NCBI GenBank assembly: GCA_001001705.1
Contig: LCOG01000002.1
Coordinates: 20,056 to 84,055, forward strand
Reading direction: 5' to 3'
Source: Parcubacteria group bacterium GW2011_GWA2_47_26
GTDB lineage: Bacteria; Patescibacteriota; Patescibacteriia; GWA2-47-26
DNA: 64,000 nt
Positions 3,127-50,845 of this stretch are shown in pieces. How positions within the stretch are numbered: position 1 is the stretch's first letter; every line of letters begins with the position of its first letter. The notes under the pieces are model-generated. The model was not told the origin of the DNA, did no database searches, and saw nothing but the letters and a program-made list of their open reading frames with translations. Position numbers and translations under genes: made by a program.

Positions 3127-3130
3127 TCTA

Positions 3131-14217: not shown

Positions 14218-16340
14218 GCGCAGAAGTATTGTGCATGGCAATTAATTATCAACGCGAACTAAACGCCGAGCAGTTGCGTGTAGTCAATGACGGAAACGGT
14301 CCTTGTTTAGTTTTAGCCGGAGCTGGAACAGGCAAGACGCGGACCATTGTGTACCGCGTTGCTTATTTATTGGAACAAGGCATTGATCCGGGCAAGATTT
14401 TGTTGGTTACTTTTACCAATAAAGCCAGCCGCGAGATGTTAAGAAGAGTGGAAATTTTGCTTGGCCACACGCCCGAAGGTCTTTGGGGCGGAACTTTTCA
14501 TCATGTGGGCCATGCAATTTTGCGCCGTTATGGATCGCGCATCGGACTCGCGTCCGGTTTTACTATTTTAGATCAGGATGACAGCATGGAATTGCTAAAA
14601 TCAACTATGGCAGAGCAGGGCCTGTCCACTAAAAAAGATGATAAATCTTTTCTAAAACCCGAAGTATTAGATAACTTAATTAGCTTTTCTGTAAATAGCG
14701 CGCGCGCATTGCCAGAGCTTGTTGAGGAATGGATACCTAAACATGCACATCTAACGCCGGAAATTTTACGCCTCGCAAGCGCCTACGAGCAAAAAAAGCG
14801 CGAACGTAATGTTGTAAGTTTTGATGATTTGCTTTATTTCTGGCTATGCCTTTTGCGTGAGAGGCCCGAGGTGCGCGAGAGTCTAGGCGGTAAGTTTGAT
14901 TATATATTGATTGATGAATATCAGGATACAAATCGTTTGCAAGGTATGATCGTTGAAGAACTTGCTCGTCAAAGTGAAGGCGGTGGGGCTTGTGGTAAAA
15001 ACGTTCTTGTGGTTGGCGATGATGCCCAATCAATCTACGCCTTCCGTGCCGCGACCGTTGAAAATATTATGCGTTTTCCCGAGGTATTTCCCGGCGCAAA
15101 AATTTTCCGTCTTGAACAGAATTATCGCTCTACGCAAGCAATTCTTGATCTGGCGAACGCATGCATCGCTTGCAATCGCCGGCAATTTGAAAAGGAACTT
15201 AAAAGTGCTTGTCATCCTGAGCGAAGCGAAGGATCCCGGCCTAATCGAGAATCACGGGATTCTTCGGCCTCTGGCCTCAGAATGACAGACTATGAGGGCA
15301 CTAGGCCGGAGCTTATTGGGTGCGCTGACGCTACCCAAGAGGCTAGATTTATTGCGGGCAAGGTTTTGGAGTTTCACGACGAAGGCGAATCTCTCCTTGC
15401 AAGCGCTGTACTCTTCCGTGCGGCCTATCAAGCCATGCAGCTTGAACTAGAACTTCAAAAGCGAGGGGTGCCCTATGTTGTTCGGGGCGGTATTCGTTTT
15501 TTTGAACAAGCGCATATCAAAGACGTGGTGGCGTATCTAAAAGTGGTAGCGAATCCAACTGACGAGATTGCTTGGCAGCGTGTGCTAAAAATGGAAGAGG
15601 GAATTGGTGCAAAAACTGCCGCGGTGCTTGCGCAACGCATGATTCATAACTCCCCCCAACCCTCTCTTACCTTAAGAGGTGGTGATATAGTGAATATTCC
15701 TACCCAAAGAGCGCGGGGAAGTGAGGAGGGGTTACAAAAAGTTCTTGCCCGTATTGAAAAATTAAAATCTTTAGATAAGGTCTATAGAATGATTGATTAT
15801 TTATTAGAAGCATTTTACGAAAATTATGCCGAAGCAGTTTTTGAAAACGCGCGAGAGCGGCTTGAAGATTTAAGACAACTCGCGCTTTTTGCCAAAGAGT
15901 ACCAAGAGCTAGAACAATTTTTAGCTGATGCAACCCTTTCAGAAGGCTTTCGCGGGGAAAGAAAAGGGAACGTTTCTAATTTTGTCGAGCAAAATTTAGA
16001 GACGCTCCCTTTTCTTAATGAAGATCAAGAGCATCTAGTGCTCTCTACGATTCATCAAGCTAAAGGCTTGGAGTGGAAAAATGTTTTTGTGGTGGGTCTG
16101 ATTGATGGTCAATTTCCGCATTACAAATCTCACGGTAGCCGCGCAGAGCTCGAAGAAGAACGGCGTCTTTTTTATGTGGCAGTGACGCGCGCCAAAGAGC
16201 AGCTCTTTCTAACCTATCCCGTAACCAGTATGGGCTCGCTTGGCACAGCCGTGCACCAGCCGTCTTTATTTGTCCGCGAACTCAACCCGCATTTGTTTAA
16301 GACCATGCTGGATGACGAAGAAGTCGTCGTTGAAATATAA
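14214..16340 (+). CDS. uvrD: ATP-dependent DNA helicase UvrD/PcrA family (in-frame family A, E and F elements)
   Basis: Walker A AGAGTGKT, helicase motifs through VTRAKEQLFL. Confidence 0.9.
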   Translation: MSAEVLCMAINYQRELNAEQLRVVNDGNGPCLVLAGAGTGKTRTIVYRVAYLLEQGIDPGKILLVTFTNKASREMLRRVEILLGHTPEGLWGGTFHHVGHAILRRYGSRIGLASGFTILDQDDSMELLKSTMAEQGLSTKKDDKSFLKPEVLDNLISFSVNSARALPELVEEWIPKHAHLTPEILRLASAYEQKKRERNVVSFDDLLYFWLCLLRERPEVRESLGGKFDYILIDEYQDTNRLQGMIVEELARQSEGGGACGKNVLVVGDDAQSIYAFRAATVENIMRFPEVFPGAKIFRLEQNYRSTQAILDLANACIACNRRQFEKELKSACHPERSEGSRPNRESRDSSASGLRMTDYEGTRPELIGCADATQEARFIAGKVLEFHDEGESLLASAVLFRAAYQAMQLELELQKRGVPYVVRGGIRFFEQAHIKDVVAYLKVVANPTDEIAWQRVLKMEEGIGAKTAAVLAQRMIHNSPQPSLTLRGGDIVNIPTQRARGSEEGLQKVLARIEKLKSLDKVYRMIDYLLEAFYENYAEAVFENARERLEDLRQLALFAKEYQELEQFLADATLSEGFRGERKGNVSNFVEQNLETLPFLNEDQEHLVLSTIHQAKGLEWKNVFVVGLIDGQFPHYKSHGSRAELEEERRLFYVAVTRAKEQLFLTYPVTSMGSLGTAVHQPSLFVRELNPHLFKTMLDDEEVVVEI
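15211..15287. repeat. Family A element within uvrD (encodes HPERSEGS...)
   Basis: GTCATCCTGAGCGAAGCGAAGGATCCC...GGGATTCTTCGGCCTCTGGCCTCAGAATGAC. Confidence 0.8.
15647..15692. repeat. Family E single unit within uvrD
   Basis: CATAACTCCCCCCAACCCTCTCTTACCTTAAGAGGTGGTGATATAGTG. Confidence 0.6.
15958..16016. repeat. Family F element within uvrD
   Basis: GGAAAGAAAAGGGAACGTTTCTAATTTTGTCGAGCAAAATTTAGAGACGCTCCCTTTTCT. Confidence 0.75.
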
Positions 16341-16923: not shown

Positions 16924-18331
16924 GAACGAGAAACGCACAGTATATCTTGATCATGCCGCGGCCACACCTCTTGATCCGCAAGTTAAAGAGGCTATGTTGC
17001 CATATCTGGGCGAACAATATGGCAACCCCTCGGCAATCTATGCGCCGGGGCGCATTGCTCGAGAAGCTTTGGATAATGCGCGCGAGACAGTAGCACAGGC
17101 TTTAAATTGCACCGCCGCCGAAATTATGTTTACCGGTAGCGGCACCGAGTCTGCTAATCTGGCCATTTTCGGCGTCGCACGAGGGTATCGTCGTGACCAA
17201 GTCACTGCCGCAGGCGCAACCCGTGACTTGGTCACAAAAGGCCACATCATCACCACCAACATTGAACATCATGCTGTTTTAAATTCCTGCAAAGCCCTTC
17301 AAAACGACGGTTTTGAAGTTACTTATTTGAAAGTAGATCATGACGGGCTTGTAACAGCCGAGCAATTTAAAGCCGCTATTCGGCCGGACACGATTTTAAT
17401 TTCCATCATGTACGCCAATAACGAGATTGGCACAATTGAGCCGATACATGAACTCACGCGCGCAATGCAAGAGCGCAAAAAAGAACTCGGACGCAAGCCA
17501 AATGACCCCCCATTTTTTCATACTGATGCCTGTCAGGCCGCGGGATATTTAGATATTGATGTGAAGAGCCTCGGGGTGGACCCCGTTAGAGGCAGGTCGC
17601 CCCAAGGTGACCGTAGCACTGCCTCTAGCGGGGTGGCCTCTAGCGGGGTGGATTTAATGACAATCAATGGAAGCAAGATTTATGGGCCCAAAGGCACTGG
17701 TGCTCTTTTTGTGCGCCGTGGCTTGAAACTGCAACCGCTAATTTATGGGGGCGGACAAGAAATGAAATTGCGCTCTGGAACAGAGAATGTGGCTGGTATT
17801 GTGGGGTTGGCCACGGCGCTTAAAATTGCGACGCAACTACGCGATAAAGAGGGGCAGCGCTTAATTGCACTGCGTGATCAACTGCTTACTGGCATTATGG
17901 ATCGCATTCCAAAGGTGGTATTAAATGGACACGCCACCAAACGTTTGCCGAACAATGTTGATGTGTCAATTTTAGACATTGAAGGCGAAGCCATGCTTTT
18001 GTATCTGGATGAGCATGGTATATATGTATCAACCGGCAGCGCTTGTGATTCCCAAGCTCTGGATCCCTCGCATGTGATTTTGGCTCTAGGCAAGCCCTAT
18101 GAATTCGCGCACGGCAGTATCCGGTTTACTTTGGGGCGCGCGACTAGCGCAGCAGATATTGATTATGTATTGGATGTCCTGTCGCAGATTGTAAGCACCC
18201 TGCGCAAAATATCGCCGGTGCGCATAGATGTGAATGCAACCGGTATAACTGCTAAGACCGCGTTTGTTGGGGACGGTCTGCCGCATTTCGTAAAACAGCA
18301 GAGTAATAGAGGAAAAAAGGACCGCCTCTAA
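16922..18331 (+). CDS. nifS: Cysteine desulfurase NifS/IscS (class V aminotransferase) with in-frame family D and C elements; stop codon lies inside a family F element
   Basis: PLP-binding region, TGSGTESANLAI, active-site Cys loop STGSACDS. Confidence 0.9.
   Translation: MNEKRTVYLDHAAATPLDPQVKEAMLPYLGEQYGNPSAIYAPGRIAREALDNARETVAQALNCTAAEIMFTGSGTESANLAIFGVARGYRRDQVTAAGATRDLVTKGHIITTNIEHHAVLNSCKALQNDGFEVTYLKVDHDGLVTAEQFKAAIRPDTILISIMYANNEIGTIEPIHELTRAMQERKKELGRKPNDPPFFHTDACQAAGYLDIDVKSLGVDPVRGRSPQGDRSTASSGVASSGVDLMTINGSKIYGPKGTGALFVRRGLKLQPLIYGGGQEMKLRSGTENVAGIVGLATALKIATQLRDKEGQRLIALRDQLLTGIMDRIPKVVLNGHATKRLPNNVDVSILDIEGEAMLLYLDEHGIYVSTGSACDSQALDPSHVILALGKPYEFAHGSIRFTLGRATSAADIDYVLDVLSQIVSTLRKISPVRIDVNATGITAKTAFVGDGLPHFVKQQSNRGKKDRL
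17192..17235. repeat. Family D element (GTGACCAAGTCAC doublet) within nifS
   Basis: GTGACCAAGTCACTGCCGCAGGCGCAACCCGTGACTTGGTCAC. Confidence 0.8.
17575..17657. repeat. Family C element within nifS (encodes VDPVRGRSPQGDRSTASSGVA)
   Basis: GTGGACCCCGTTAGAGGCAGGTCGCCCCAAGGTGACCGTAGCACTGCCTCTAGCGGGGTGGCC with duplicated terminal arm. Confidence 0.8.
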
Positions 18332-18369
18332 TTTTGCAGAGCAAAATTTAGAAGTGGTCCCTTTTTCCT
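18313..18369. repeat. Family F element containing the nifS stop codon and the iscU ORF 5' end
   Basis: GAAAAAAGGACCGCCTCTAATTTTGCAGAGCAAAATTTAGAAGTGGTCCCTTTTTCC. Confidence 0.8.
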
Positions 18370-24619: not shown

Positions 24620-24643
24620 CTAGCATACTCGCTAGTATGCTAG
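24620..24643. promoter_or_regulatory. Inverted repeat CTAGCATACT-cgct-AGTATGCTAG upstream of the TrpR/YerC-like gene
   Basis: 10-bp arms; same arms recur at 25305. Confidence 0.5.
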
Positions 24644-24690: not shown

Positions 24691-25308
24691 ATGGCAAAAT
24701 TTAGTTCCCGACAAAGACTGGACCATAAACAGCGGCAAAAGGTATTGCTCGAGCTTTGCCATGCGTTAGTTGTGGTCAAGAAATTGGATGAAGCCGCTAA
24801 AGTGCTTGGCGATTTATTATCTGACCAAGAAATTGAAATGATTGCTAAGCGTTTGCAAATTGCAAAATTCTTGCTTCAGGACAAGAAGTACGAGGAAATT
24901 ATGGAGCAGTTAAAAGTTAGTGCTACTACTATTGCCCGAGTAAACCTTTGGCTCCAACAGGCCGGTGATGGGTTTCGGATGGTGATGTCCCGTGGGCTCG
25001 CTAAGAACAGTGTCAAGATTCCGGAGTGGCAGCCTCCGGCACGCAAAAGCGAAATGGCACGACGTTTCCCGCTTTATTATTGGCTGCAGGGATTGCTGGA
25101 AGGCATTATCCGCGCCGCAAATAATCGTCAGCGTGCAAAGATGCTGGAGACGCTCAAAGTGTTGAGGGTTTCTGGTAAAGGCAAGCGCGAAGTGTTTCGC
25201 TATGTGGAAGAGCTGATTCATAATCAGCAACGGAGCCCAAATCCGCGTCGTTTGCGGTCACTTGAGCTTGAAAAGGAAATGCAATTGGAGAAAGTAAAAC
25301 AATACTAG
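24691..25308 (+). CDS. TrpR/YerC/YecD-like DNA-binding protein
   Basis: LSDQEIEMIAKRLQIAKFLLQDKKYEEIMEQLKVSATTIARV helix-turn-helix resembling the Trp-repressor-like YerC family. Confidence 0.55.
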   Translation: MAKFSSRQRLDHKQRQKVLLELCHALVVVKKLDEAAKVLGDLLSDQEIEMIAKRLQIAKFLLQDKKYEEIMEQLKVSATTIARVNLWLQQAGDGFRMVMSRGLAKNSVKIPEWQPPARKSEMARRFPLYYWLQGLLEGIIRAANNRQRAKMLETLKVLRVSGKGKREVFRYVEELIHNQQRSPNPRRLRSLELEKEMQLEKVKQY

Positions 25309-25328
25309 CATACTAGCTAGTATGCTAG
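25305..25328. promoter_or_regulatory. Perfect palindrome CTAGCATACTAGCTAGTATGCTAG overlapping the stop codon of the TrpR-like gene
   Basis: Second copy of the same dyad; extends to a 30-bp perfect palindrome. Confidence 0.5.
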
Positions 25329-25472
25329 TATTAGCCAGATCAGATTCGGATCTTGCAAATCTTGTAAAAAAAGGACGGGATCACAAAAAGGCCCTTGCGG
25401 GCCCTTCGGATGAATTATCTATAATTTATAATAACACATGGGGTATAATTGTCAAGGATGGGGTGTGGATAG

Positions 25473-26816: not shown

Positions 26817-27020
26817 TCCCGTTAGAAGCCGCGGTCGTTGGTTTGTGGAGTAGATAATATTCATATGCAGAAAGGTCAAATGGTTTTAATAAATAACCTC
26901 GCAGGGCGGGCGACCGCGACCTGTCCCGTTAGAAGTGTTGTTCTAACGGGTAATCAATCAGGAGTCTGGGGAGTGTTCAGTATTATGGGCACTTCTAACG
27001 GGACCTGCTTCTAACGGGAT
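26817..27020. repeat. Family B element (expanded/composite) ending on the ATG of the PrgI-like gene
   Basis: ATCCCGTTAGAAGCCGCGGTCG ... GGCGACCGCGACCTGTCCCGTTAGAAGTGTTGTTCTAACGGG ... ACTTCTAACGGGACCTGCTTCTAACGGGAT|G. Confidence 0.75.
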
Positions 27021-27444
27021 GCAACAATTCGTCGTCCCCCAATTCATTGATGTTGAGGATAAGATCATCGGCCCGATTACCACGCGGCAGTTTATTATTA
27101 TGCTTGTCGTGGGACTGGCAATTTTTATCTTCTATAAAATACTGGCCTTTATTCCTTTTGTAATCTCGGCAATCCTTTTGTTCGGTGCCGGAGGAGTAAT
27201 TGCATTCTTGCGCATTAATGGTCAACCCTTTCATTTTTTTCTGCTTAACGTCTTTCAGACTTCGCGCCGGCCAAAATTAAAAGTTTGGAACAAAGAACTG
27301 ACTGACGCGGAATTAAGAGAAAGATTAACTGCTCCACTGCCGCCGCATCCACTGCCGCCGCCGCGCAAAGAATTGTTGACCACTTCACGGCTGAACGAGA
27401 TAGCGCTGGTCGTGGACACTGGCGGTGTTTATACGCCGGAATAA
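27019..27444 (+). CDS. PrgI/VirB3-like small membrane protein (T4SS component candidate)
   Basis: 141 aa, two hydrophobic helices, immediately upstream of and overlapping VirB4. Confidence 0.5.
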   Translation: MQQFVVPQFIDVEDKIIGPITTRQFIIMLVVGLAIFIFYKILAFIPFVISAILLFGAGGVIAFLRINGQPFHFFLLNVFQTSRRPKLKVWNKELTDAELRERLTAPLPPHPLPPPRKELLTTSRLNEIALVVDTGGVYTPE

Positions 27445-28147
27445 TATGCCCGAAATGCAATCAAAAAAATTAGCCGGAGCCAAACCCGGGCCCGCAGTCC
27501 AGCAGTATCTTGATATTGCGGAAATAAAAGAAGATGTAGTGGTTTTAAAAGATGGAACCCTGCGGGCCGTGCTCGCGGTTGCTTCAGTAAATTTCGGTTT
27601 AAAGTCCGAAGATGAACAAAATGCCACCATCTCCGCCTATGTGCAATTTATCAATGCTCTAGAGCATCCTTTGCAGATCGTGATTCAGTCCCGCAAGCTT
27701 AATATTGATGAGTATATAAATCGCCTGGAGCGCGCGGAGCATGAGCAGACCAATGATCTTCTGCGTCTGCAGATTACAAACTACCGCTCTTTTATTAAAG
27801 AATTGGTTGAACTCGGCGAAATAATGTCTAAACGTTTTTTTCTTGTTGTGCCATACTCGCCATTATCCGATAAACGCAAAGGGTTTTGGTCTAGGTTTTC
27901 AGAGCTTTTGCGTCCGCTAGTTACCGTGCGCATTCGAGAAGAGCGTTTTCGCGCTCATCGCGGAGCTCTTTTGCAAAGAGTCTCACATGTGCAAAACGGG
28001 CTGTCTTCCATTGGGCTGAAATCACAAGCGCTGGATACCCAAGCTTTGATTGAGTTGTACTACAGGGTTTATAATCCTGATATCGCTGAAGTGGAAAAAT
28101 TGCAGGATCTGGCTAAGATTAAGACTGAAGAGTCGTACGCGGTCTGA
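27425..28147 (+). CDS. virB4: VirB4/TrsE/PrgJ-family ATPase, N-terminal portion (split gene)
   Basis: N-terminal domain typical of Gram-positive VirB4 homologues; ends at TGA directly before a family G element. Confidence 0.65.
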   Translation: MFIRRNNMPEMQSKKLAGAKPGPAVQQYLDIAEIKEDVVVLKDGTLRAVLAVASVNFGLKSEDEQNATISAYVQFINALEHPLQIVIQSRKLNIDEYINRLERAEHEQTNDLLRLQITNYRSFIKELVELGEIMSKRFFLVVPYSPLSDKRKGFWSRFSELLRPLVTVRIREERFRAHRGALLQRVSHVQNGLSSIGLKSQALDTQALIELYYRVYNPDIAEVEKLQDLAKIKTEESYAV

Positions 28148-28149
28148 TT

Positions 28150-28235
28150 ATGTAGCATGTAGCCTGTAACATATAACACAAGATTGAAATTGAGTACGCT
28201 CTTGGGTTACATGCTACATGTTATAAGTTTACATG
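28150..28235. repeat. Family G hairpin element separating the two virB4 ORFs
   Basis: ATGTAGCATGTAGCCTGTAACATATAACACAAG...TTACATGCTACATGTTATAAGTTTACA. Confidence 0.7.
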
Positions 28236-28239
28236 ATTT

Positions 28240-30114
28240 ATGCCTTTACTCGGTAAGAAAAAACCCCCGATAGCTATCGGGGCGCCCCAGGTGACTGTGG
28301 CGGCGCAAAAAGCCAAAGCGGCCGAAGAGCGCATCGTGCTTGAAGAAGAGCGCGTATATCGGCGCGGTGTAGTTTCAGTGCGCGATATTATAGCGCCGGC
28401 TTCCATGCAGCTGACGCCTTCTTTTGTGAAGCTGGGCGATGTTTTTGTGCGCACCATTTTTGTCGTTTCTTATCCTCGCTATATCGCAGTGGGTTGGTTT
28501 ACGCCCATTGTTAATTTGCCGGTAACTTTGGATATTGGTATGTTTTTCTATCCGGTTAAGTCCGATGTTATTTTGAAGCAATTGAAGAAGAAAGTCGGCA
28601 CGCTTGAGGCCCAAGTTATTGCTGATTCGGAAAAAGGCGCTCCGCGCGATCCGATTCGCGAGACCGCCTTGCGCGATATTGAAAAGTTGCGCGACGATTT
28701 GACCCAAGGGACAGAAAAGTTTTTCCAGTTCGCTCTTTATGCGACAATTTACGCAAAAGACAAAGCCGAGCTGGAAAAGCTGACCGAGGATATAGAAGCG
28801 CTCTTCGGCAGCAAATTGATTTATTCTAAAAAAGTATTTTTCCAGGCGGAGCAAGGCTTTAATTCCACAATTCCGTTAGGCAATGACGAACTCATGATTG
28901 CCTTTAACATGAATTCCTCCCCGATTGCCTCTTCGTTTCCGTTTATCTCCGCGGATTTAACCTCGGATAACGGCATTCTCTACGGCATTAACCGTCACAA
29001 CAATAGCCTCATCCTGTTTGATCGTTTTTCTCTGCAGAATGCCAATTTCGTGGTCTTTGCCACCTCTGGCGCCGGTAAAAGCTATACCATGAAATTGGAA
29101 ATTTTGCGCTCTTTAATGCTTGGCACAGACGTAATTGTGATTGACCCGGAAATGGAATACAAGCATTTATCCGACGCGGTTGGCGGCACCTATATAAATA
29201 TTTCCCTGGCGGGCGAGGCCAAAGTAAATCCTTTTGATCTTTCGCGCCCGGTTGGCGAAGAGGTTAAGACCGAAGATATAATCCGTTCCGCGGTTATCAC
29301 GATTAAAGGATTGTTAAAAATAATGCTTGGTCAATTTACCCATGAAGAAGATGCCCTGATGGATCGCGCGCTTATTGAGACTTATGCGAAAAAAGACATT
29401 ACCGCCACCTCTGATCTTTCTAAAGTGGAGGCGCCAATTATGTCTGATTTGCAAGAAGTGCTGGAGGGCATGGAAGGCGGGGCTTCTTTGGCCGAGCGGC
29501 TGAAAAAATATACGACTGGAACATTTGGCAGTCTTATCAATAGCCCGACCAATGTTGATATGCGCAACCAGTTAGTGGTTTTCTCTGTTCGCGATTTGGA
29601 GGACGAGTTGCGGCCGATTGCCATTTACTCGTTAGTCAATTATATCTGGAATGTGGTGCGCTCGGAGCGCAAGAAAAGAATTTTGACCATTGATGAGGCT
29701 TGGTGGCTTATGCAAAATGAGGATTCGGCAAAATTCATTTTTGCGCTTGTTAAACGCGCGCGAAAATATTATCTTGGAGTAACAACCATTACGCAGGATG
29801 TAAACGACTTCCTGCTTAATCCTTACGGTAAAGCGATTGTAACCAACTCCGCCCTCCAGTTGCTTTTGAAGCAATCGCCCGCCGCTATCGATCTAGTCCA
29901 GCAGACCTTTATGCTTACTGAAGGGGAGAAATATTTACTTTTGGAATGTGCGGTTGGAGAAGGCATCTTTTTTGCCGGCGCAAAACACGCCGCTATAAAA
30001 GTCGTGGCTTCCTACGCCGAAGATCAGCTTGTTACGACCGACCCTCGCCAACTGCTTGAGCTGGAGGCGGCTAAGAAAGAATTTGAGGAACAAATGATGC
30101 CTAAGGGCCTATGA
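28240..30114 (+). CDS. virB4: VirB4/TrsE/PrgJ-family ATPase, C-terminal ATPase portion (split gene)
   Basis: Walker A FATSGAGKSYTM, Walker B ILTIDEAWWLM, conserved C-terminal motifs. Confidence 0.85.
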   Translation: MPLLGKKKPPIAIGAPQVTVAAQKAKAAEERIVLEEERVYRRGVVSVRDIIAPASMQLTPSFVKLGDVFVRTIFVVSYPRYIAVGWFTPIVNLPVTLDIGMFFYPVKSDVILKQLKKKVGTLEAQVIADSEKGAPRDPIRETALRDIEKLRDDLTQGTEKFFQFALYATIYAKDKAELEKLTEDIEALFGSKLIYSKKVFFQAEQGFNSTIPLGNDELMIAFNMNSSPIASSFPFISADLTSDNGILYGINRHNNSLILFDRFSLQNANFVVFATSGAGKSYTMKLEILRSLMLGTDVIVIDPEMEYKHLSDAVGGTYINISLAGEAKVNPFDLSRPVGEEVKTEDIIRSAVITIKGLLKIMLGQFTHEEDALMDRALIETYAKKDITATSDLSKVEAPIMSDLQEVLEGMEGGASLAERLKKYTTGTFGSLINSPTNVDMRNQLVVFSVRDLEDELRPIAIYSLVNYIWNVVRSERKKRILTIDEAWWLMQNEDSAKFIFALVKRARKYYLGVTTITQDVNDFLLNPYGKAIVTNSALQLLLKQSPAAIDLVQQTFMLTEGEKYLLLECAVGEGIFFAGAKHAAIKVVASYAEDQLVTTDPRQLLELEAAKKEFEEQMMPKGL

Positions 30115-30178
30115 CATGTAGCCTGTAACATGTAGCTCAAGGTCTTGTGTTATATGTTACAAGTTATAAGTTACAAAA
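30112..30178. repeat. Family G element after virB4
   Basis: ATGACATGTAGCCTGTAACATGTAGCTCAAGGTCTTGTGTTATATGTTACAAGTTATAAGTTACA. Confidence 0.7.
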
Positions 30179-30184
30179 ACCCAT

Positions 30185-30781
30185 ATGTCTCGCCGCACTA
30201 AAATAATCCTCGTAAGCGTTATAGTGATAATTATTTTGATTATACTTTTCTGGTTGATTTGGATAGGGCCGCAAATGTTGCGGCGCAATACAACAAATGT
30301 GCCCGCGCCACCACTAGAAACTCAAGGCGGGCTTGCCTTGCCTCTGTCGCCCGCAACTCCTCTCGGCGCGGCGCCGCAGACCGCCGAAGTCGGCGCGGAA
30401 GTGGCCCAGGCCTCGCTTGAAGCTTTTGCGCGCTCCTTTATTGAACGCTACGGCAGTTATTCCAACCAAAGCAATTATGACAATCTTGAAGATTTATATC
30501 CTTTTATGACTAAAAATCTTCAGCAATCAACTCAAGATTTTGTGCAAAGTGAACGGGCTAAAATGCGGACGCAAACACCAGCTTATTTTGGCATTACTAC
30601 GCGAGTATTATCTAGCATGGTGTCTCTATTGAATGATGATCGCGCCGGACTAGTTATTAAGACGCAACGGCGCGAGTCTGGCTCTGACCCGAACGCTTCG
30701 CGGCTCTATTATCAAGATGTAGAACTGAAACTAGTAATGGTGGGGGAGCAATGGAAAGTTGATGTGGCGGAATGGCAATAA
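30185..30781 (+). CDS. Bitopic membrane protein, VirB8-like (NTF2-like) candidate
   Basis: Short cytoplasmic N-term, one TM, ~150-aa external domain; position after VirB4. Confidence 0.35.
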   Translation: MSRRTKIILVSVIVIIILIILFWLIWIGPQMLRRNTTNVPAPPLETQGGLALPLSPATPLGAAPQTAEVGAEVAQASLEAFARSFIERYGSYSNQSNYDNLEDLYPFMTKNLQQSTQDFVQSERAKMRTQTPAYFGITTRVLSSMVSLLNDDRAGLVIKTQRRESGSDPNASRLYYQDVELKLVMVGEQWKVDVAEWQ

Positions 30782-31502
30782 AATGGTACGGCTTATGCTG
30801 TTTCAGAGGTGCATAAACTTTACCATTGATACCCTTTTCCCCATCGAATGCCTGGGATGTAAAAAAGAAGGCGAGTGGTTATGTCAGGACTGTTTGGCAA
30901 AAATTCCCATTGAAACCAAGGAGGACTGTTTTGTTTGCAAAAAACCGTCCGCCGGCGGTAAAACTTGTTTTTCCTGTCAACGCAATTTTTCACTTCAAAG
31001 CGTGGCATGGTTAACAGATTACGACAATGCCTTAGTGCACCGGGCGCTTCATATAGCCAAATATGGATATGTTAAGGCAGTATTAGTCGCGCTTCTCAAT
31101 AGTTTAGTGCCGCATCTATCTCATAAGTTTAGATTTTTTGATCTTGATCCGCGGGCGGTCATGTTTATACCCGTTCCCTTGCATCTGCGTCGTTTGCGGG
31201 ATCGCGGATTTAATCAGGCGCAAATTGTAGCCGAGTCATTTGCTCGCGCGACTAATGGCATTTGCGTAAACGCATTGACGCGGAGACGTTTTACAATACC
31301 GCAGGTTAAGCTTGACGAGGCGGATCGGGCGAGAAATATTAAAGGAGTTTTCAAATGCCTAGATCAAGCAACCGTCGCCGATCACTATGTGTTTATTGTA
31401 GATGATGTGGCAACAAGCGGAGCAACACTCAATGCTTGCGGCGAAGAGCTACAAAAAGCCGGAGCGCGAGGAGTATTTGGATTGGTAATTGCGAAGGGTT
31501 GA
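30759..31502 (+). CDS. comFC: Competence protein ComFC (phosphoribosyltransferase-domain DNA-uptake protein)
   Basis: N-terminal double CxxC zinc finger, C-terminal PRTase motif VFIVDDVATSGATL. Confidence 0.8.
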   Translation: MMWRNGNKMVRLMLFQRCINFTIDTLFPIECLGCKKEGEWLCQDCLAKIPIETKEDCFVCKKPSAGGKTCFSCQRNFSLQSVAWLTDYDNALVHRALHIAKYGYVKAVLVALLNSLVPHLSHKFRFFDLDPRAVMFIPVPLHLRRLRDRGFNQAQIVAESFARATNGICVNALTRRRFTIPQVKLDEADRARNIKGVFKCLDQATVADHYVFIVDDVATSGATLNACGEELQKAGARGVFGLVIAKG

Positions 31503-31513
31503 AAACAAAAAAA

Positions 31514-31597
31514 CGGAAGGGGTGGGACTCGAACCCACAAGCCCTTGCGGGCGCCGGTTTTCAAGACCGGTTCCTTAGCCATTCGGAGCACCCTTCC
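31514..31597 (-). tRNA. tRNA-Ser (TGA)
   Basis: Reverse complement folds: GGAAGGG acceptor, anticodon loop CTTGAAA, long variable arm, T-arm GTGGGTTCGAGTCCCAC. Confidence 0.75.
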
Positions 31598-31598
31598 A

Positions 31599-31685
31599 CG
31601 GAGAGGGTGGGATTTGAACCCACGAGCCCCCTTACGGGGGCAGAGTTTAGCAAACTCTTGCCTTGGACCACTCGGCCACCTCTCC
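31599..31685 (-). tRNA. tRNA-Ser (GCT)
   Basis: Reverse complement GGAGAGGTGGCCGAGTGGTCCAAGGC..., anticodon loop TTGCTAA, long variable arm, T-arm GTGGGTTCAAATCCCAC. Confidence 0.75.
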
Positions 31686-32408: not shown

Positions 32409-34697
32409 ATGATCCGCTATAACTTATCAAGTCCAGTAAGTGCACTATCGCATATTGGCCGCACCGTGGAGACTCAACTGCGACACCTAGGAGTTCTCAC
32501 CATACAGGATCTCCTTTTTTATTTTCCGGTTCGCTACGACGATTTGCGCAATATCACCGAGATTAAAGATTTAAAAATCGGCGAAAGGGCAGTAGTGCGT
32601 GGAAAAATTGAGCTTATTCAAAGCCGCCGCAGCAAATATAGAAAGAAACTCCTTACCGAGGCCATTGTCTCTGATGCGACGGGCAGTTTAAAAATACTTT
32701 GGTTTGGCCAGCCTTGGCTAATTAAAATGTTTAAAACCGGCGATGAGCTGTATTTGGTTGGCGAAGTTAAAGACGATGGCTCCGGCGCGTATATGTCCTC
32801 GCCAAGCTATGAGCGCGCAAGCGGGCACGCGACAATTCATACGGGCCGCATTGTGCCAGTTTACGCTTTGACCGAAAAGCTTTCTCAAAAACAAGTGCGT
32901 TTTTTAATGAGTCGCGCTTTTCCGCTCGCTTCGAGCATAGTTGATTGGCTGTCTCAAGATTTGAGGACAAGATACAAATTATTGGATTTAAAACGCGCTA
33001 TTTCTTTTGTGCATTTTCCGCCGGATAATCAAAAAATGGAAGCGGCCCGGCGGCGTTTGAAATTTGATGAATTGCTGCGCTTGCAGATTTTTGCCGCTAA
33101 AGTAAAACAGGAACTCAAAAAATTACCCGCCCCGAAAGCGGTATTTAATGAGAAGGCGACAAAGCAATTTGTACAAGGCTTGCCTTTTGAGTTAACCGAG
33201 GCGCAACGCAAAGCGGCCTGGGAAATTGTCAAAGATATTAGTCGGCCGCGCCCAATGAATCGTTTGCTGGAGGGCGATGTTGGATCGGGAAAGACTGTCG
33301 TGGTTGCGATTGCGGCATTGAATGCGGTTGGTGTTTGTGACCATGTCACCGCGGCTAGTGACCTGGTCACAAACAAAGGTCAGGTGGCCATTATGGCGCC
33401 GACCGAAATTTTGGCGCGTCAACATTTCAAAACATTTTCAAAATTACTTGGACCCCATGGTGTGCAAGTAGAGTTACGCACCAGCAGTGAAAAAGGTAAA
33501 AAGGGGATTATAGACAGCAATGTAGTTGTGGGAACACATGCTTTAATACAAGACAGTGTAAAGTTCAAAGATTTGGTGCTCGCGGTTGTTGATGAACAGC
33601 ACCGTTTTGGCGTGCGTCAACGGCAAGCGCTCAAGGATAAGCGCGAGGATGGAAAAATGCCCCATCTGCTTACTTTGACCGCCACGCCAATCCCGCGTAG
33701 TTTGGCTTTAGTATTTTATGGCGATCTTGATCTCTCCGTGCTTAATGAAATGCCCAAGGGGCGGCAGAGAATTGAAACCGTGTTGGTAAGTAACGCTTCC
33801 CAACCCCCTCCTCATAAACCCACCCACCCTCCCCTTAAGTTAAGGGGAGGAGGCGAAAAAGGGACCGCCTCTAATTTTGCAAAGCAAAACTTAGAAGTGG
33901 TCCCTTTTTCGCGGGAACAGGCCTATCAATTTATCCGTACTGAAGTTGCCGCCGGCCACCAAGTCTTTTGGACATGCCCGATTATTGATCCTTCCGACAC
34001 GCTTGGTGTAAGAGCCGCGACCGAAGTATTTGAGCATTTGCGCACCGAAATTTTTTCTGATCTGCGCATTGGACTCTTACACGGGCGCATGAAGTCAAAA
34101 GAAAGAGAAAAAGTGATGGAAGCGTTTGTAGGCCCATCTTGTCATCATGAGCGTAGCGAAGGATCTCGGGATTCTTCGCCTGCGGTTCAGAATGACAGAG
34201 GACACACGATTGATATTCTCGTAGCCACGCCGGTTATTGAAGTTGGTATTGATGTGCCTAATGCTACAGTCATGGTTATTGAAGGAGCACAGCGTTTTGG
34301 CTTAGCCCAGCTTCATCAATTTCGCGGACGCGTTGGCCGGGGCGAGGCGAAATCGTATTGTTTGTTGATGGTGGAAGAAAAAGGGACCGCCTCTAATTTT
34401 GCTGCGCAAAATTTAGAAGTGGTCCCTTTTTCTGCGCGTATCAAGGCATTTTTAGAGTGCGACAATGGTTTTGAACTCGCCGAGCGCGATTTGACGCTTC
34501 GCGGTCCTGGCGATACTTATGGCATTGCCCAATCCGGTTTTCCGGAATTCAAAATCGCGAGTTTCGCGGATGTTGAAATTGCCAAAGAGGCCAAAGAAGC
34601 GGCGGAGGTGATTTTAACGCGCGATCCGGAACTTACGAACTATTCCGAGCTCAAACAGGCGATACTTGATAAAGAAGGCCGGACGCATTTAGAATAA
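32409..34697 (+). CDS. recG: ATP-dependent DNA helicase RecG carrying five in-frame palindromic elements
   Basis: Wedge domain, Walker A GDVGSGKT, DEQH box, helicase C motifs QFRGRVGR. Confidence 0.9.
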   Translation: MIRYNLSSPVSALSHIGRTVETQLRHLGVLTIQDLLFYFPVRYDDLRNITEIKDLKIGERAVVRGKIELIQSRRSKYRKKLLTEAIVSDATGSLKILWFGQPWLIKMFKTGDELYLVGEVKDDGSGAYMSSPSYERASGHATIHTGRIVPVYALTEKLSQKQVRFLMSRAFPLASSIVDWLSQDLRTRYKLLDLKRAISFVHFPPDNQKMEAARRRLKFDELLRLQIFAAKVKQELKKLPAPKAVFNEKATKQFVQGLPFELTEAQRKAAWEIVKDISRPRPMNRLLEGDVGSGKTVVVAIAALNAVGVCDHVTAASDLVTNKGQVAIMAPTEILARQHFKTFSKLLGPHGVQVELRTSSEKGKKGIIDSNVVVGTHALIQDSVKFKDLVLAVVDEQHRFGVRQRQALKDKREDGKMPHLLTLTATPIPRSLALVFYGDLDLSVLNEMPKGRQRIETVLVSNASQPPPHKPTHPPLKLRGGGEKGTASNFAKQNLEVVPFSREQAYQFIRTEVAAGHQVFWTCPIIDPSDTLGVRAATEVFEHLRTEIFSDLRIGLLHGRMKSKEREKVMEAFVGPSCHHERSEGSRDSSPAVQNDRGHTIDILVATPVIEVGIDVPNATVMVIEGAQRFGLAQLHQFRGRVGRGEAKSYCLLMVEEKGTASNFAAQNLEVVPFSARIKAFLECDNGFELAERDLTLRGPGDTYGIAQSGFPEFKIASFADVEIAKEAKEAAEVILTRDPELTNYSELKQAILDKEGRTHLE
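33337..33370. repeat. Family D short element within recG
   Basis: GTGACCATGTCACCGCGGCTAGTGACCTGGTCAC. Confidence 0.65.
33793..33854. repeat. Family E unit within recG, directly abutting a family F element
   Basis: CCCAACCCCCTCCTCATAAACCCACCCACCCTCCCCTTAAGTTAAGGGGAGGAGGCG. Confidence 0.65.
33855..33910. repeat. Family F element within recG (copy 1)
   Basis: GAAAAAGGGACCGCCTCTAATTTTGCAAAGCAAAACTTAGAAGTGGTCCCTTTTTC. Confidence 0.8.
34141..34197. repeat. Family A element (short form) within recG
   Basis: GTCATCATGAGCGTAGCGAAGGATCTCGGGATTCTTCGCCTGCGGTTCAGAATGAC. Confidence 0.8.
34376..34432. repeat. Family F element within recG (copy 2)
   Basis: GAAAAAGGGACCGCCTCTAATTTTGCTGCGCAAAATTTAGAAGTGGTCCCTTTTTCT. 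Confidence 0.8.
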
Positions 34698-44140: not shown

Positions 44141-44218
44141 TCCATACGAAAGTACGAAATATTACGAAAGATACGAAAAATTTTCGTATCTTTCGTAGCG
44201 CAGTTTTCGTAATTTCGT

Positions 44219-45544
44219 ATGATTACTCTATTTATCTTTCTCGCCGTTCTATCTGTCCTTGTTTTTGTCCACGAATTTGGACATTTTTTTGTGGCAAAAA
44301 AGGCCCGATTGCGTGTTGATGAGTTTGGCATAGGTTTTCCTCCGCGGCTTATTGGAATCCGTAAAAAAAATGTCATCCTGAGGGAGTCCCGCGCCTGCGG
44401 GACGACGAAGGATACCGCACATAAAAGAACGGGATTCTTCACTGCGTTCAGAATGACGAATTGGGAGGTTGTTTGGGGCCACCCCGTTAGAGGTAAGACG
44501 CCAGAGGCGTCTGCCGATGCCCTCGGGCATCGGACCTCTAACGGGGTTGACCCGCACGCGGGCGGAACGCTTTATTCTATCAACCTGTTTCCTTTCGGCG
44601 GTTTTGTGAGAATCAAGGGAGAGTCTGGAAATGAGCGACTGGATCAGGATAGTTTTGCCAGCCGCGGCGCCGGAGTCAGAATTATGATTGCCGCGGCCGG
44701 AGTATTGATGAACGCGCTTTTGGCAGTGGTGCTCATTGCCGCGGGTTATAGACTAGGCTTTCCCCAAGCTATCTCGGATCAACCGTCAAAGTACGCGCAA
44801 ATCTCTGATCAGCATATTGAAGTCATGGGAGTCTTGCCAGATAGTCCCGCGGCGCAATCCGGTCTTAATGTTGGCGATCGTATTTTGGCAGTCGGTGTAG
44901 CGTCAGAGACAGCCGCTTTGCGTGAGCTTCAGAACTCCGAGGACTTTCGCAATGTTACAAAGGAGTTAGTCGGAGAGTCGGTAACGCTTGTTGTTGAATC
45001 TGATAAAGTGCGGCGAGAAATTCAAGTGACCCCTAAAATTTTAGAGCAAACTGGCAAGGCCGGAATAGGCGTGGCTATCGTTGATGCCGCAATAGTCCGC
45101 TATCCTTTATGGGTGGCATTGCCCAAAGCTTTTGAAACCGTGGGGATTTTAGCGAAAACGATTGTCGTAGCTTTTGCCGATATTGTCCGCGATGCTCTGC
45201 TTGGTCGGCCAGTTACGGCTGAACTGGCTGGTCCGGTTGGTATTGCCGTACTCACTGGTCAGGCCGCACGCATGGGTTTTGTATTTTTATTGCAATTTAT
45301 TGCGATCCTGTCCATTAACTTGGCCATTCTTAATGTTCTGCCGATTCCCGCGCTGGATGGCGGCCGCATCCTGTTTATTCTGATTGAAAAGCTAAGGCGT
45401 CGTCCTGTCGCGGTAAAAGTGGAAATGATGATTCAGCAGATCAGTTTTGTTTTGCTTCTGCTCCTGATTATTTTTGTGACCTATCGCGATCTCGGCCGCT
45501 ACGGCGGACGAATTACTGAATTTTTTAAGAACATGGTACAATAG
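44219..45544 (+). CDS. rseP: RseP-like site-2 protease (M50) with PDZ domain; adjacent in-frame family A and family C elements inside the first loop
   Basis: HEFGHF zinc motif, PDZ GLNVGDRILAVG, LDGG motif. Confidence 0.9.
   Translation: MITLFIFLAVLSVLVFVHEFGHFFVAKKARLRVDEFGIGFPPRLIGIRKKNVILRESRACGTTKDTAHKRTGFFTAFRMTNWEVVWGHPVRGKTPEASADALGHRTSNGVDPHAGGTLYSINLFPFGGFVRIKGESGNERLDQDSFASRGAGVRIMIAAAGVLMNALLAVVLIAAGYRLGFPQAISDQPSKYAQISDQHIEVMGVLPDSPAAQSGLNVGDRILAVGVASETAALRELQNSEDFRNVTKELVGESVTLVVESDKVRREIQVTPKILEQTGKAGIGVAIVDAAIVRYPLWVALPKAFETVGILAKTIVVAFADIVRDALLGRPVTAELAGPVGIAVLTGQAARMGFVFLLQFIAILSINLAILNVLPIPALDGGRILFILIEKLRRRPVAVKVEMMIQQISFVLLLLLIIFVTYRDLGRYGGRITEFFKNMVQ
44372..44457. repeat. 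Family A element within rseP (GAGGAGTCCCGC subfamily)
   Basis: GTCATCCTGAGGGAGTCCCGCGCCTGCGGGACGACGAAGGAT...GGGATTCTTCACTGCGTTCAGAATGAC. Confidence 0.8.
44478..44550. repeat. Family C-like element within rseP, directly after the family A copy
   Basis: CCACCCCGTTAGAGGTAAGACGCCAGAGGCGTCTGCCGATGCCCTCGGGCATCGGACCTCTAACGGGGTTGACC. Confidence 0.7.
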
Positions 45545-50044: not shown

Positions 50045-50160
50045 TATTAAGCCCTGTGCAGGCGTAATCCATGCAACTTGTAACATATAGCATGAAACCC
50101 GAGAGCATAGTCAATTGCAATCTTGTGTTTCATGTTACAGGCTACATGTTGTGTGTATCA
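50045..50160. repeat. Family G-related element upstream of rplJ
   Basis: ...CTTGTAACATATAGCATGAAAC...CTTGTGTTTCATGTTACAGGCTACATGTTGTG shares the TGTAACAT / CAGGCTACATG motifs. Confidence 0.55.
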
Positions 50161-50801: not shown

Positions 50802-50807
50802 GCAATA

Positions 50808-50845
50808 AGCAGATTAAGCAATTGCTTACTCTGCCTAATCTGCTA
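50808..50845. repeat. Family H hairpin AAGCAGATTAAGCAATTGCTTACTCTGCCTAATCTGCT after rplJ
   Basis: AGCAGATTAG/CTAATCTGCT stem. Confidence 0.6.

What the first reader, a model, noticed from the sequence alone, without database searches (positions are those of the whole stretch)
27425..30178. virB4 split into two ORFs exactly at a family G hairpin element
The N-terminal domain (27425 to 28147, 240 aa) ends at a TGA. The Walker A/B ATPase part restarts 92 nt later at 28240. The gap is filled by an imperfect inverted repeat (ATGTAGCATGTAGCCTGTAACAT...ATGTTATAAGTTTACA). A near-identical copy (30112 to 30178) follows the gene's stop and a related one precedes rplJ. The gene may therefore be a recent pseudogene, a functional two-piece VirB4, or expressed by readthrough or reinitiation.
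Basis: seen in the sequence. Interest (0 to 1): 0.65.

Follow-up and report, generated by a model that had tools for sequence, protein, structure and literature searches.

The report
Normal two-gene VirB4 with inserted hairpin
The "split" secretion-system ATPase gene is the normal, ancient two-gene arrangement (TrsD plus VirB4) found across this group of tiny bacteria, and the hairpin repeat only sits in the spacer that was already between the two genes.

Summary
The sequence facts hold. A 230-240 aa ORF ends at TGA 28145-28147, and a 624 aa P-loop ATPase ORF starts at 28240. The 92-nt gap is an imperfect hairpin with related copies at 30112-30178 and 50065-50160.

The element did not split the gene.
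- All 120 best homologues of ORF1 (of 4,669) are stand-alone proteins of 216-251 aa.
- All 76 species-level Patescibacteria loci that carry both genes have a stop codon at the same place. The ATPase gene then starts with a conserved M-A-F/I. Spacers are 1-204 nt (median 11) and all three relative frames occur. None is fused.
- The nearest relatives (79% and 76% identity) have the junction TAA-TT-ATG with no element.
- Three independent assemblies are identical across the junction.
- Both genes are under strong purifying selection.

A 2025 paper (PMC12102498) already describes this protein, TrsD. It is a remote homologue of the VirB4 N-terminus and the most abundant type IV secretion component in Patescibacteria, usually next to virB4.

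So this is a functional two-piece VirB4, already known. The hairpin is a dispersed repeat that entered a pre-existing spacer later.

One side observation may be new: Patescibacteria spacers often carry genome-specific hairpins built from inverted arrays of 7-8-nt repeats.

The parts
27019..27444 (+). prgI (VirB3-like) gene. Its stop TAA at 27442-27444 lies one base before ATG 27446.
   Evidence: Pfam PF12666 PrgI, E = 5.8e-8, 33.6 bits against a cutoff of 27. Sequence read.
27446..28147 (+). trsD-like gene (Pfam 'TraC-like' PF26593). It encodes a stand-alone protein homologous to the first part of the VirB4 N-terminal region. The mechanical ORF starts at GTG 27425; the likely start is ATG 27446 or ATG 27455.
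   Evidence: All 120 best homologues are 216-251 aa. NCBIfam matches: VirB4_plasma positions 111-233/894 (E = 5.8e-10), TrsD/TraD positions 17-142/201 (E = 5.4e-7), CD1110-type VirB4 positions 2-96/752 (E = 1e-4). The 13 best Foldseek PDB matches to the AF2 model are all TrwK/VirB4. pN 0.14 against pS 0.77.
28148..28239 (+). Family-G hairpin copy c1, which fills the trsD-virB4 spacer. The 5' arm is the heptads ATGTAGC ATGTAGC CTGTAAC ATATAAC, the loop is about 27 nt, and the 3' arm is complementary. The base of the stem pairs the GA of the stop codon with the UU that lies one base before the AUG.
   Evidence: The element is absent from the same junction in the closest relatives L084 and L087, and a related element is present in L085.
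28240..30114 (+). virB4 ATPase gene (TrsE/CD1110 type). It encodes the second part of the N-terminal region plus the complete P-loop C-terminal domain.
   Evidence: NF045971, 335.1 bits against a cutoff of 325, model positions 172-729/752. PF19044, E = 1e-27. 4AG5 VirB4 C-terminal domain, E = 1.7e-48, with Walker A GAGKS and Walker B DEAW aligned. The N-terminus MPL... matches the conserved M-[AP]-[FIL] start of the orthologues.
28265..28282 (.). Perfect 18-nt palindrome CCCCGATAGCTATCGGGG inside the variable N-terminal codons of virB4. It is an in-frame insertion relative to close relatives.
30112..30178 (+). Family-G hairpin copy c2. It starts on the virB4 stop codon and ends 7 nt before the next ATG. 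Its 3' arm (GTTATAT/GTTACAA heptads) pairs with the 5' arm largely through G:U.
   Evidence: RNA fold -29.5 kcal/mol, z = -4.1 on the + strand, against -17.5 and z = -1.1 on the - strand..
30185..30781 (+). Next gene of the cluster, a membrane protein with a weak TcpC-like match.
   Evidence: PF12642, E = 0.0032, below the cutoff. An orthologous small membrane gene follows virB4 in the other loci.
50065..50160 (-). Family-G hairpin copy c3, in the spacer upstream of rplJ (50268-50801). It is in inverted orientation and is the closest copy to c1.
   Evidence: 88% identity over 74 nt to c1, including the loop. ORF context. No Rfam family matches here.

Best explanation
The two ORFs are two ordinary, ancestral, separately translated genes of the Patescibacteria type IV secretion cluster.
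- trsD encodes a protein of about 230 aa that is homologous to the first part of the VirB4 N-terminal region.
- virB4 encodes the rest of the N-terminal region plus the P-loop ATPase domain.

Together they do the job that a single VirB4 polypeptide of about 750-820 aa does in other systems. By inference, TrsD supplies in trans the part that docks the ATPase to PrgI/VirB3 at the membrane.

In most relatives the two genes are 1-12 nt apart, often as stop-N-ATG, which suggests translational coupling. In this genome a copy of a dispersed hairpin repeat ('family G', built from TGTARC heptads) has entered that existing spacer. Another copy has entered the spacer after virB4. The coding sequences were not touched.

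The stem closes right at the stop codon and one base before the start codon. The insertion can therefore loop out and leave stop and start next to each other.

Shown: the two-gene layout is ancestral, both genes are under purifying selection, the element varies in presence among relatives, and ORF1 is homologous to the VirB4 N-terminus. Inferred: the docking role of TrsD, translational coupling, and the loop-out tolerance of the hairpin.
For: -: 4,669 homologues of ORF1, and the best 120 are all 216-251 aa.
- in 76 of 76 species-representative loci with both genes, the trsD orthologue (224-246 aa) ends in a stop and virB4 starts M-A-F/I. Spacers are 1-204 nt with a median of 11; 31 are 5 nt or less and 11 are exactly 1 nt. 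Relative frames are 20/33/23. There are no fusions.
- the closest relatives (75-79% aa identity) have spacers of 2, 2, 46, 77 and 112 nt. The empty site reads TAA-TT-ATG.
- three assemblies from three samples are 100% identical over 28100-28300.
- ORF1 has pN 0.14-0.15 against a saturated pS of 0.77-0.83. ORF2 has dN/dS of about 0.05.
- ORF1 residues 16-107 match CD1110-VirB4 model positions 2-96, and ORF2 residues 31-581 match positions 172-729 (335 bits, cutoff 325). ORF1 also matches TrsD/TraD.
- the AF2 model of ORF1 has TrwK/VirB4 chains as its 13 best PDB matches (probability up to 0.97).
- PMC12102498 reports 2,272 TrsD homologues in Patescibacteria, 1,664 of them next to virB4, and reports that TrsD is essential in Ca. 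Southlakia epibionticum.
- the element is a multi-copy dispersed repeat.
- the geometry of the stem base.
Against: - The homology of ORF1 to VirB4 and TrsD is remote. The NCBIfam scores are far below the curated cutoffs. The AF2 model has a mean pLDDT of only 66, and the Foldseek match is weak (E = 0.019, TM-score 0.40).
- No expression or protein data exist for this organism.
- The arm sequence of the element is conserved between genomes whose synonymous sites are saturated. This holds for the window against L085 at this junction, and for the window against L016 at the virB4 3' end. A purely neutral passenger would not be expected to behave this way, so the element may have a function of its own.
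- Whether the 92-nt hairpin changes virB4 translation is unknown.
Confidence: 0.88

Rival explanations
1. The hairpin is a functional cis-element at the RNA or DNA level, not a passive insertion. It would tune the relative output of trsD and virB4, and of virB4 and the next gene. Possible routes are mRNA processing or stabilisation, as with REP/BIME hairpins inside E. coli operons, or modulation of translational coupling. This reading is compatible with the ancestral two-gene layout.
For: - Copy c2 folds much better on the sense strand, through G:U pairs (-29.5 kcal/mol, z = -4.1, against -17.5, z = -1.1).
- Heptads of the same family lie directly after the virB4 stop in the distant L016 and in the trsD-virB4 gap of L085, although synonymous sites are saturated.
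- About a quarter of orthologous junctions in other genomes carry analogous hairpins.
Against: - Across genomes there is no consistent sense-strand folding advantage. About half of the hairpins fold better on the antisense strand.
- The closest relatives do well without any element.
- The repeat unit differs from genome to genome.
- There is no terminator-like U-run and no Rfam family.
Confidence: 0.25
2. virB4 is a recent pseudogene, broken by insertion of the hairpin element into a formerly continuous gene.
For: Only the superficial picture supports this: two adjacent ORFs that together resemble a full-length VirB4, with a repeat between them.
Against: - None of 76 orthologous loci has a continuous gene, and the stop and start positions are conserved.
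- The empty-site relatives already have stop-TT-start.
- Both ORFs are intact, keep all invariant residues and the Walker motifs, and show strong purifying selection.
Confidence: 0.02
3. A single VirB4 polypeptide is made from both ORFs by stop-codon readthrough, frameshifting or ribosomal bypass of the hairpin, as in phage T4 gene 60.
For: The hairpin begins at the stop codon and brings stop and start together.
Against: - A second in-frame stop, TGA at 28234-28236, lies in the ORF2 frame just before the ATG.
- In the orthologues the two genes are in all three relative frames and often 1-5 nt apart, so no conserved recoding signal can exist.
- The stand-alone protein is the family norm.
Confidence: 0.02
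4. The stop codon and the gap are an assembly or sequencing artefact.
For: None was found.
Against: Three independently assembled contigs from three samples are identical to the window over 201 nt across the junction.
Confidence: 0.01

Closest known systems
TrsD + VirB4 of the Patescibacteria type IV secretion system (MPF_FATA-related), described in PMC12102498 (Microb Genom 2025)
   Same: - A stand-alone protein of about 230 aa, remotely homologous to the VirB4 N-terminus, is encoded immediately upstream of virB4.
- PrgI/VirB3 lies just before it.
- The cluster is chromosomal and sits among housekeeping genes.
- The layout is widespread across the phylum.
   Different: Nothing essential differs. 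This genome additionally has hairpin repeats in the trsD-virB4 spacer and in the spacer between virB4 and the next gene. The paper's passages that I read do not discuss such repeats.
TrsD/TraD + TrsE/TraE of staphylococcal conjugative plasmids of the pGO1/pSK41 type (NCBIfam NF041427)
   Same: The architecture has the same two genes. ORF1 matches the TrsD/TraD model over positions 17-142 of 201 (E = 5.4e-7). The paper names pGO1 as the only MPF_FATA prototype with TrsD.
   Different: The score of 29.6 bits is far below the curated cutoff of 200, so ORF1 is a distant relative and not a member of that subfamily. The context is chromosomal in an episymbiont lineage, not a conjugative plasmid.
Full-length VirB4 ATPases: the CD1110 family NF045971, TrwK of R388 (PDB 7O41, 8RTB) and the T. 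pseudethanolicus VirB4 C-terminal domain (4AG5)
   Same: ORF2 passes the CD1110 family cutoff and aligns to 4AG5 at E = 1.7e-48. ORF1 and ORF2 together cover model positions 2-96 and 172-729 of 752. The ORF1 model's best structural matches are TrwK.
   Different: Those proteins are single polypeptides, whereas here the first part is a separate gene product.
REP/BIME and MITE-like intergenic palindromic repeats, and intergenic heptanucleotide repeats (TAACTGA repeats of Beggiatoaceae, PMC4679880; GTAG-tagged REPs, PMC3733652)
   Same: These are short, imperfectly palindromic, multi-copy and intergenic, and they lie between co-directional genes. The repeat unit is 7 nt. Family G heptads contain GTAG.
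   Different: - The arms here are themselves tandem heptad arrays placed in inverted orientation.
- The unit sequence is genome-specific.
- No target-site duplication could be established.
- No associated transposase was looked for.
- The Beggiatoaceae repeats are almost all direct, with one inverted case.

Membership tests
VirB4-type T4SS ATPase (NCBIfam NF045971, CD1110 family; Pfam PF19044/AAA_10) | Whole-protein HMM score above the curated cutoff | tested here: met
   ORF2 scores 335.1 bits against a cutoff of 325. PF19044 scores 97.2 bits against a cutoff of 25.8.
VirB4-type T4SS ATPase (NCBIfam NF045971, CD1110 family; Pfam PF19044/AAA_10) | P-loop C-terminal domain with Walker A and Walker B motifs | tested here: met
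   The alignment to 4AG5 (E = 1.7e-48) shows GAGKS and DEAW aligned.
VirB4-type T4SS ATPase (NCBIfam NF045971, CD1110 family; Pfam PF19044/AAA_10) | Complete N-terminal region in the same polypeptide | tested here: not met
   ORF2 covers only model positions 172-729 of 752. Positions 2-96 are matched by ORF1. This is the normal state in Patescibacteria.
VirB4-type T4SS ATPase (NCBIfam NF045971, CD1110 family; Pfam PF19044/AAA_10) | Encoded among other T4SS components | tested here: met
   PrgI/VirB3 lies upstream and a weak TcpC-like gene lies downstream. The same gene order is seen in relatives.
TrsD / 'TraC-like' (PF26593; NF041427) | Stand-alone protein of about 200-250 aa | tested here: met
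   The best 120 homologues are 216-251 aa. The orthologues are 224-246 aa.
TrsD / 'TraC-like' (PF26593; NF041427) | Profile match | tested here: inconclusive
   PF26593 is precomputed on the 100%-identical protein P0001 and on all 120 listed homologues. The local Pfam copy did not return it. NF041427 TrsD gives E = 5.4e-7 but 29.6 bits against a cutoff of 200.
TrsD / 'TraC-like' (PF26593; NF041427) | Remote homology to the N-terminal part of VirB4 | tested here: met
   NF045975 gives E = 5.8e-10 and NF045971 gives E = 1e-4. The 13 best Foldseek matches are TrwK/VirB4 chains, with probability up to 0.97.
TrsD / 'TraC-like' (PF26593; NF041427) | Encoded immediately upstream of virB4 | tested here: met
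   True in the window and in 76 of the 77 loci that hold enough downstream sequence. The exception is L037.
Pseudogene / recently disrupted gene | Relatives have one intact ORF where this genome has fragments | tested here: not met
   None of 76 loci is fused.
Pseudogene / recently disrupted gene | Relaxed selection or degenerative changes | tested here: not met
   ORF1 has pN/pS of about 0.18 and ORF2 has dN/dS of about 0.05, with no internal stops. All invariant columns of the family alignment are kept.
Programmed readthrough / bypass (T4 gene 60-like) | The two parts form one protein in relatives, with a conserved recoding signal | tested here: not met
   The relative frames are 0, 1 and 2 in 20, 33 and 23 loci, and spacers are as short as 1 nt. 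A second in-frame stop lies at 28234-28236.
Intrinsic terminator | GC-rich stem followed by a U-run | tested here: not met
   The terminator scan reports nothing at 28148-28239 or at 30112-30178 on the + strand. The stems are AT-rich (GC 0.33).
REP/MITE-like dispersed palindromic repeat | Several similar copies in intergenic DNA of one genome | tested here: met
   There are three copies in 64 kb, all intergenic. c1 and c3 are 88% identical over 74 nt.
REP/MITE-like dispersed palindromic repeat | Target-site duplication or an associated transposase (RAYT or other) | tested here: inconclusive
   TGATTATG (28145-28152) and TGATTTATG (28234-28242) flank c1 and resemble the empty site TAA-TT-ATG. 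However, they are also part of the inverted repeat, and c2 shows no such duplication. No transposase search was made.

The most novel reading that the evidence does not exclude
The family-G element belongs to a class that has not been described. These are hairpins whose two arms are inverted arrays of 3-5 tandem 7-nt (sometimes 8-nt) units. The unit sequence is specific to a genome or clade. They repeatedly occupy the tight stop-start junctions of Patescibacteria operons, including trsD-virB4 and virB4-next gene. They persist at orthologous junctions beyond synonymous-site saturation. That would imply either a dedicated mechanism that spreads them or a function in operon expression.
Probability: 0.25. 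Interest if true: 0.5.

Novelty: already known. Interest (0 to 1): 0.15.

Why it matters
For the finding as stated, it matters mainly as a caution for annotation. In Patescibacteria, a virB4 that looks split into a gene of about 230 aa and a gene of about 620 aa is the native TrsD + VirB4 pair. It should not be flagged as a pseudogene, a frameshift or a recoding event. A repeat lying between two ORFs does not show that the repeat split them.

The T4SS is thought to be central to the episymbiotic lifestyle of these bacteria, and TrsD is reported as essential in the one species tested (PMC12102498). How a VirB4 supplied in two pieces assembles is therefore a fair structural question, but it is not new.

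The recurrent heptad-array hairpins in operon spacers could be worth a dedicated survey.

Tried and rejected
- Metagenome scan with the 15-mer TGTAGCCTGTAACAT.
- Rfam at gathering thresholds. It found only three tRNAs and no family at any element, including the one upstream of rplJ.
- phmmer of ORF1 against PDB sequences. There were no hits, so a structure model and Foldseek were needed.
- My first gap script. It suggested three fused or odd loci (L058, L039, L054). Inspection showed that tblastn alignments had run across the stop codon. The corrected script gives no fusions.
- Lack of a Shine-Dalgarno motif before ORF2 as evidence for coupling. I rejected this because only 1 of 48 long ORFs in the window has such a motif.
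- Sense-strand G:U asymmetry as evidence for an RNA function. It is true for c2 but not consistent across genomes.
- Target-site duplication around c1. It is ambiguous and is not seen at c2.
- Terminator or promoter role. The consensus scans give counts close to those in shuffled sequence and report nothing at the elements.
Full report
**What is in the sequence**

An ORF at 27425-28147 ends in TGA. A 624-aa ORF runs from 28240 to 30114. The 92 nt between them form an imperfect inverted repeat.

As RNA, 28141-28245 folds at -30 kcal/mol with z = -3.2. The outermost pairs join the G and A of the stop codon to the two U's that lie one base before the AUG. The element therefore fills the spacer exactly.

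The 16-mer ATGTAGCCTGTAACAT recurs exactly at 30116 and, on the minus strand, at 50132. With up to 3 mismatches there are 6 matches against 0.35 expected. The double heptad TGTARCNTGTARC gives 15 matches with up to 1 mismatch against 0.52 expected, and 14 of them lie in the three elements.

- **Start of ORF1.** The likely start is ATG 27446, one base after the TAA of the upstream prgI gene, or ATG 27455. It is probably not GTG 27425.
- **Closest copy.** The nearest copy of the gap element is the one upstream of rplJ (88% over 74 nt, loop included, inverted orientation). The copy after the gene's stop shares only the arm heptads and has a different, short loop.
- **Position of the break.** It lies inside the VirB4 N-terminal region, not between that region and the ATPase domain. 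ORF2 keeps about 240 residues ahead of the part that aligns with the solved C-terminal domain 4AG5.

**What the two proteins are**

ORF2 is a VirB4-type ATPase.
- PF19044 matches at E = 1e-27.
- The NCBIfam CD1110 family scores 335 bits against a cutoff of 325. The match covers only model positions 172-729 of 752.
- 4AG5 matches at E = 1.7e-48, with the Walker A and B motifs aligned.

ORF1 matches the beginning of full-length VirB4 models and a stand-alone family.
- CD1110 family, positions 2-96, E = 1e-4.
- Mycoplasma-type VirB4, positions 111-233, E = 5.8e-10.
- The stand-alone TrsD/TraD family of pGO1/pSK41-type plasmids, E = 5.4e-7.

An AlphaFold2 model of ORF1 was built from 40 homologues (mean pLDDT 66). 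All 13 of its best PDB matches are TrwK/VirB4 chains of the R388 system. The matches are weak but consistent (E = 0.019, probability 0.97, TM-score 0.40).

The upstream gene is PrgI/VirB3-like. In the evolutionary sense the pair does look like a VirB4 in two pieces.

**Is the split recent, and did the element cause it? No.**

- **Homologue lengths.** ORF1 has 4,669 homologues. The best 120 are all stand-alone proteins of 216-251 aa from Patescibacteria (Uhrbacteria and relatives), and all carry Pfam PF26593 'TraC-like'.
- **Orthologous loci.** I fetched 80 species-representative loci and located both genes in each. In all 76 loci that hold both, the ORF1 orthologue (224-246 aa) ends in a stop codon. 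The ATPase gene follows and starts with a conserved M-A-F/I. The window's MPL... fits that pattern.
- **Spacers and frames.** Spacers run from 1 to 204 nt with a median of 11. Thirty-one are 5 nt or less, and 11 are exactly one base (TGAtATG or TAAtATG). The two genes stand in all three relative frames (20, 33 and 23 loci). None is fused. Three apparent exceptions in my first script were artefacts.
- **Closest relatives.** At 79% and 76% aa identity, the junction is TAA-TT-ATG with no element. Other close relatives have spacers of 46, 77 and 112 nt.
- **Assembly.** Three independent assemblies from three samples are identical to the window across the junction.
- **Selection.** Both genes are under strong purifying selection. 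ORF1 has pN 0.14-0.15 against a saturated pS of 0.77-0.83. ORF2 has dN/dS of about 0.05.

**It is already in the literature**

PMC12102498 (Microb Genom 2025) describes the type IV secretion system of Patescibacteria.
- TrsD is the most abundant T4SS component found: 2,272 homologues, of which 1,664 lie next to virB4.
- Outside this phylum, the paper finds TrsD only in the pGO1 subclass of the monoderm MPF_FATA systems.
- It lists TrsD as essential in Ca. Southlakia epibionticum.

The window's order prgI-trsD-virB4, set among housekeeping genes (a ComFC-like gene, tRNAs and RecG), fits that description.

**How it most likely works**

TrsD and VirB4 are made as two proteins. By inference from the R388 structures, TrsD supplies in trans the membrane-proximal first part of the VirB4 N-terminal region and helps dock the ATPase to PrgI/VirB3.

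The short stop-N-start junctions in relatives suggest translational coupling. This is an inference. In this genome the prgI-trsD junction still has that form (TAAtATG). The trsD-virB4 spacer and the spacer between virB4 and the next gene have each received a family-G hairpin flush with the stop codon.

Because the stem closes at the stop and start codons, the insertion can loop out. That may be why it is tolerated. The absence of a Shine-Dalgarno motif before ORF2 says nothing, because only 1 of 48 long ORFs in the window has one. The hairpins are not intrinsic terminators and match no Rfam family.

**What the element is**

It is a dispersed repeat whose arms are tandem heptads.
- 5' arm: ATGTAGC / CTGTAAC / ATATAAC.
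- 3' arm: the complement, partly through G:U wobble, as in the GTTATAT heptads of c2.

Copies c1 and c3 also share the loop, which points to copying rather than local growth.

Related elements occur at two orthologous positions in other genomes:
- in the same trsD-virB4 gap in L085, a relative with 77% aa identity;
- directly after the virB4 stop in the distant L016.

Synonymous sites are saturated at these distances. The family is therefore either mobile, maintained by concerted evolution, or under constraint. I could not decide between these.

A possible 8-9-nt target duplication around c1 is confounded with the palindrome, and none is seen at c2. There is no consistent sense-strand folding advantage across genomes.

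**A wider pattern seen on the way**

In other Patescibacteria, long trsD-virB4 spacers and long spacers between virB4 and the next gene are very often hairpins made of inverted arrays of 7- or 8-nt units. The unit differs from genome to genome. Examples:
- (CAGCTTC)4 / (GAAGCTG)4 in L052;
- CCCTAAA and AAATTCT in L035;
- ATTACGA in L043 and L071;
- GTCATAAC / GTTAAGAC in L041.

Counts of tandem arrays with 2.8 or more copies:

| Set | Size | Period-7 arrays | Period-7 with inverted partner within 100 nt | Period-8 arrays | Period-8 with inverted partner |
|---|---|---|---|---|---|
| Patescibacteria loci | 0.91 Mb | 79 | 15 | 21 | 7 |
| First-order Markov control of the same loci | 0.91 Mb | 5 | 0 | 4 | 0 |
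| Unrelated metagenome contigs | 0.81 Mb | 21 | 1 | 5 | 0 |

In the Patescibacteria set, period 6 gave 19 arrays with no inverted partners, and period 9 gave 23 arrays with 2. Forty-six of the 79 period-7 arrays lie outside long ORFs, although long ORFs cover 88% of the bases.

Heptanucleotide repeats as such are known in bacteria (PMC4679880). I found no description of inverted heptad-array hairpins in this phylum. The library search is not exhaustive.

**Verdict**

The implied causal role of the element and the pseudogene and readthrough options are refuted.

The arrangement is already known, so interest is low. The only part with some novelty potential is the class of heptad-array hairpins that occupy operon junctions.

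Noticed in passing
L052:6716-6781; L035:5914-5988, 6731-6763 and the virB4 3' spacer; L043:6693-6720; L071:876-907; L041:8644-8719; L026, L049, L016, L063, L079, L075 spacers: Many Patescibacteria intergenic spacers at operon junctions are hairpins whose arms are inverted arrays of tandem 7-nt or 8-nt units, and the unit differs between genomes. Period 7 is the commonest short tandem period (79 arrays in 0.91 Mb, against 5 in a Markov control and 21 in 0.81 Mb of unrelated contigs). Fifteen period-7 and 7 period-8 arrays have an inverted partner, against 0-1 in the controls.
   Followed up: partly
L016:4748-4825 and 5497-5590: A distant relative (70% VirB4 identity) has CATGTAGCATGTAGC...GTTATAA directly after the virB4 stop. 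This is the same heptad family at the same place as window copy c2. It has another copy after the next gene. Synonymous sites are saturated at this distance.
   Followed up: partly
window 15959-16016, 18310-18369, 33853-33912, 34365-34444, 55592-55651: Five copies of a different hairpin family of about 60 nt (AAAAAGGGACCGCCTCTAATTTT / AAATTAGAAGTGGTCCCTTTTT, 8-nt loop), with 85-88% complementary arms.
   Followed up: no
window 44143-44221; 50797-50837 and 62705-62759; 24620-24643 and 25300-25333; 3130-3171 and 33332-33375: Further hairpin families are present: TACGAAA heptad arrays in inverted orientation, TAAGCAG/ATTAAGC heptads, CTAGCATACTAG palindromes, and TGTGACC-nn-GTCACA palindromes.
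   Followed up: no
window, all long ORFs: Only 1 of 48 ORFs of 150 aa or more has a Shine-Dalgarno-like motif 6-16 nt upstream of its ATG. This organism appears to initiate translation largely without SD pairing.
   Followed up: partly
window 28265-28282: A perfect 18-nt palindrome, CCCCGATAGCTATCGGGG, lies inside the variable N-terminal codons of virB4. It is an in-frame insertion relative to the closest relatives. On the minus strand it scores as terminator-like.
   Followed up: partly
window 46895-49609: The 904-aa ORF, which I take to be the phenylalanyl-tRNA synthetase beta subunit (not searched), contains a KQIKQIKQIKQIKQ run. It also contains two odd low-complexity stretches (...HPECSEGSRGSKNGIPRGVQPRTELRSGAWARNDK... 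and ...HSGHSEPAHQSEARCGVLLREESRALQNGILRRIAPQDD...). These look like in-frame insertions, possibly of repeat elements.
   Followed up: no
window 27442-27448; 11 of the 76 loci: Recurrent stop-N-ATG junctions (TAAtATG, TGAtATG, TAGtATG) occur between prgI and trsD in the window, and between trsD and virB4 in 11 of 76 genomes. This suggests termination-reinitiation coupling along the T4SS operon.
   Followed up: partly
window 30762-31502, 31514-31685 (-), 32409-34697: The T4SS cluster is followed by a ComFC-like gene (double zinc ribbon plus a phosphoribosyltransferase domain), two tRNA genes on the opposite strand, and recG. This is a chromosomal, housekeeping context.
   Followed up: no
L037:6001-6800: This is the one genome in which the trsD orthologue is not followed by virB4 within 4 kb. 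A heptad-type hairpin and then an unrelated gene follow instead.
   Followed up: no
L064:59-116: A pure tandem array of eight CATGTAG/CATGTAA heptads (the family-G unit) without an inverted partner, in a Parcubacteria genome.
   Followed up: no
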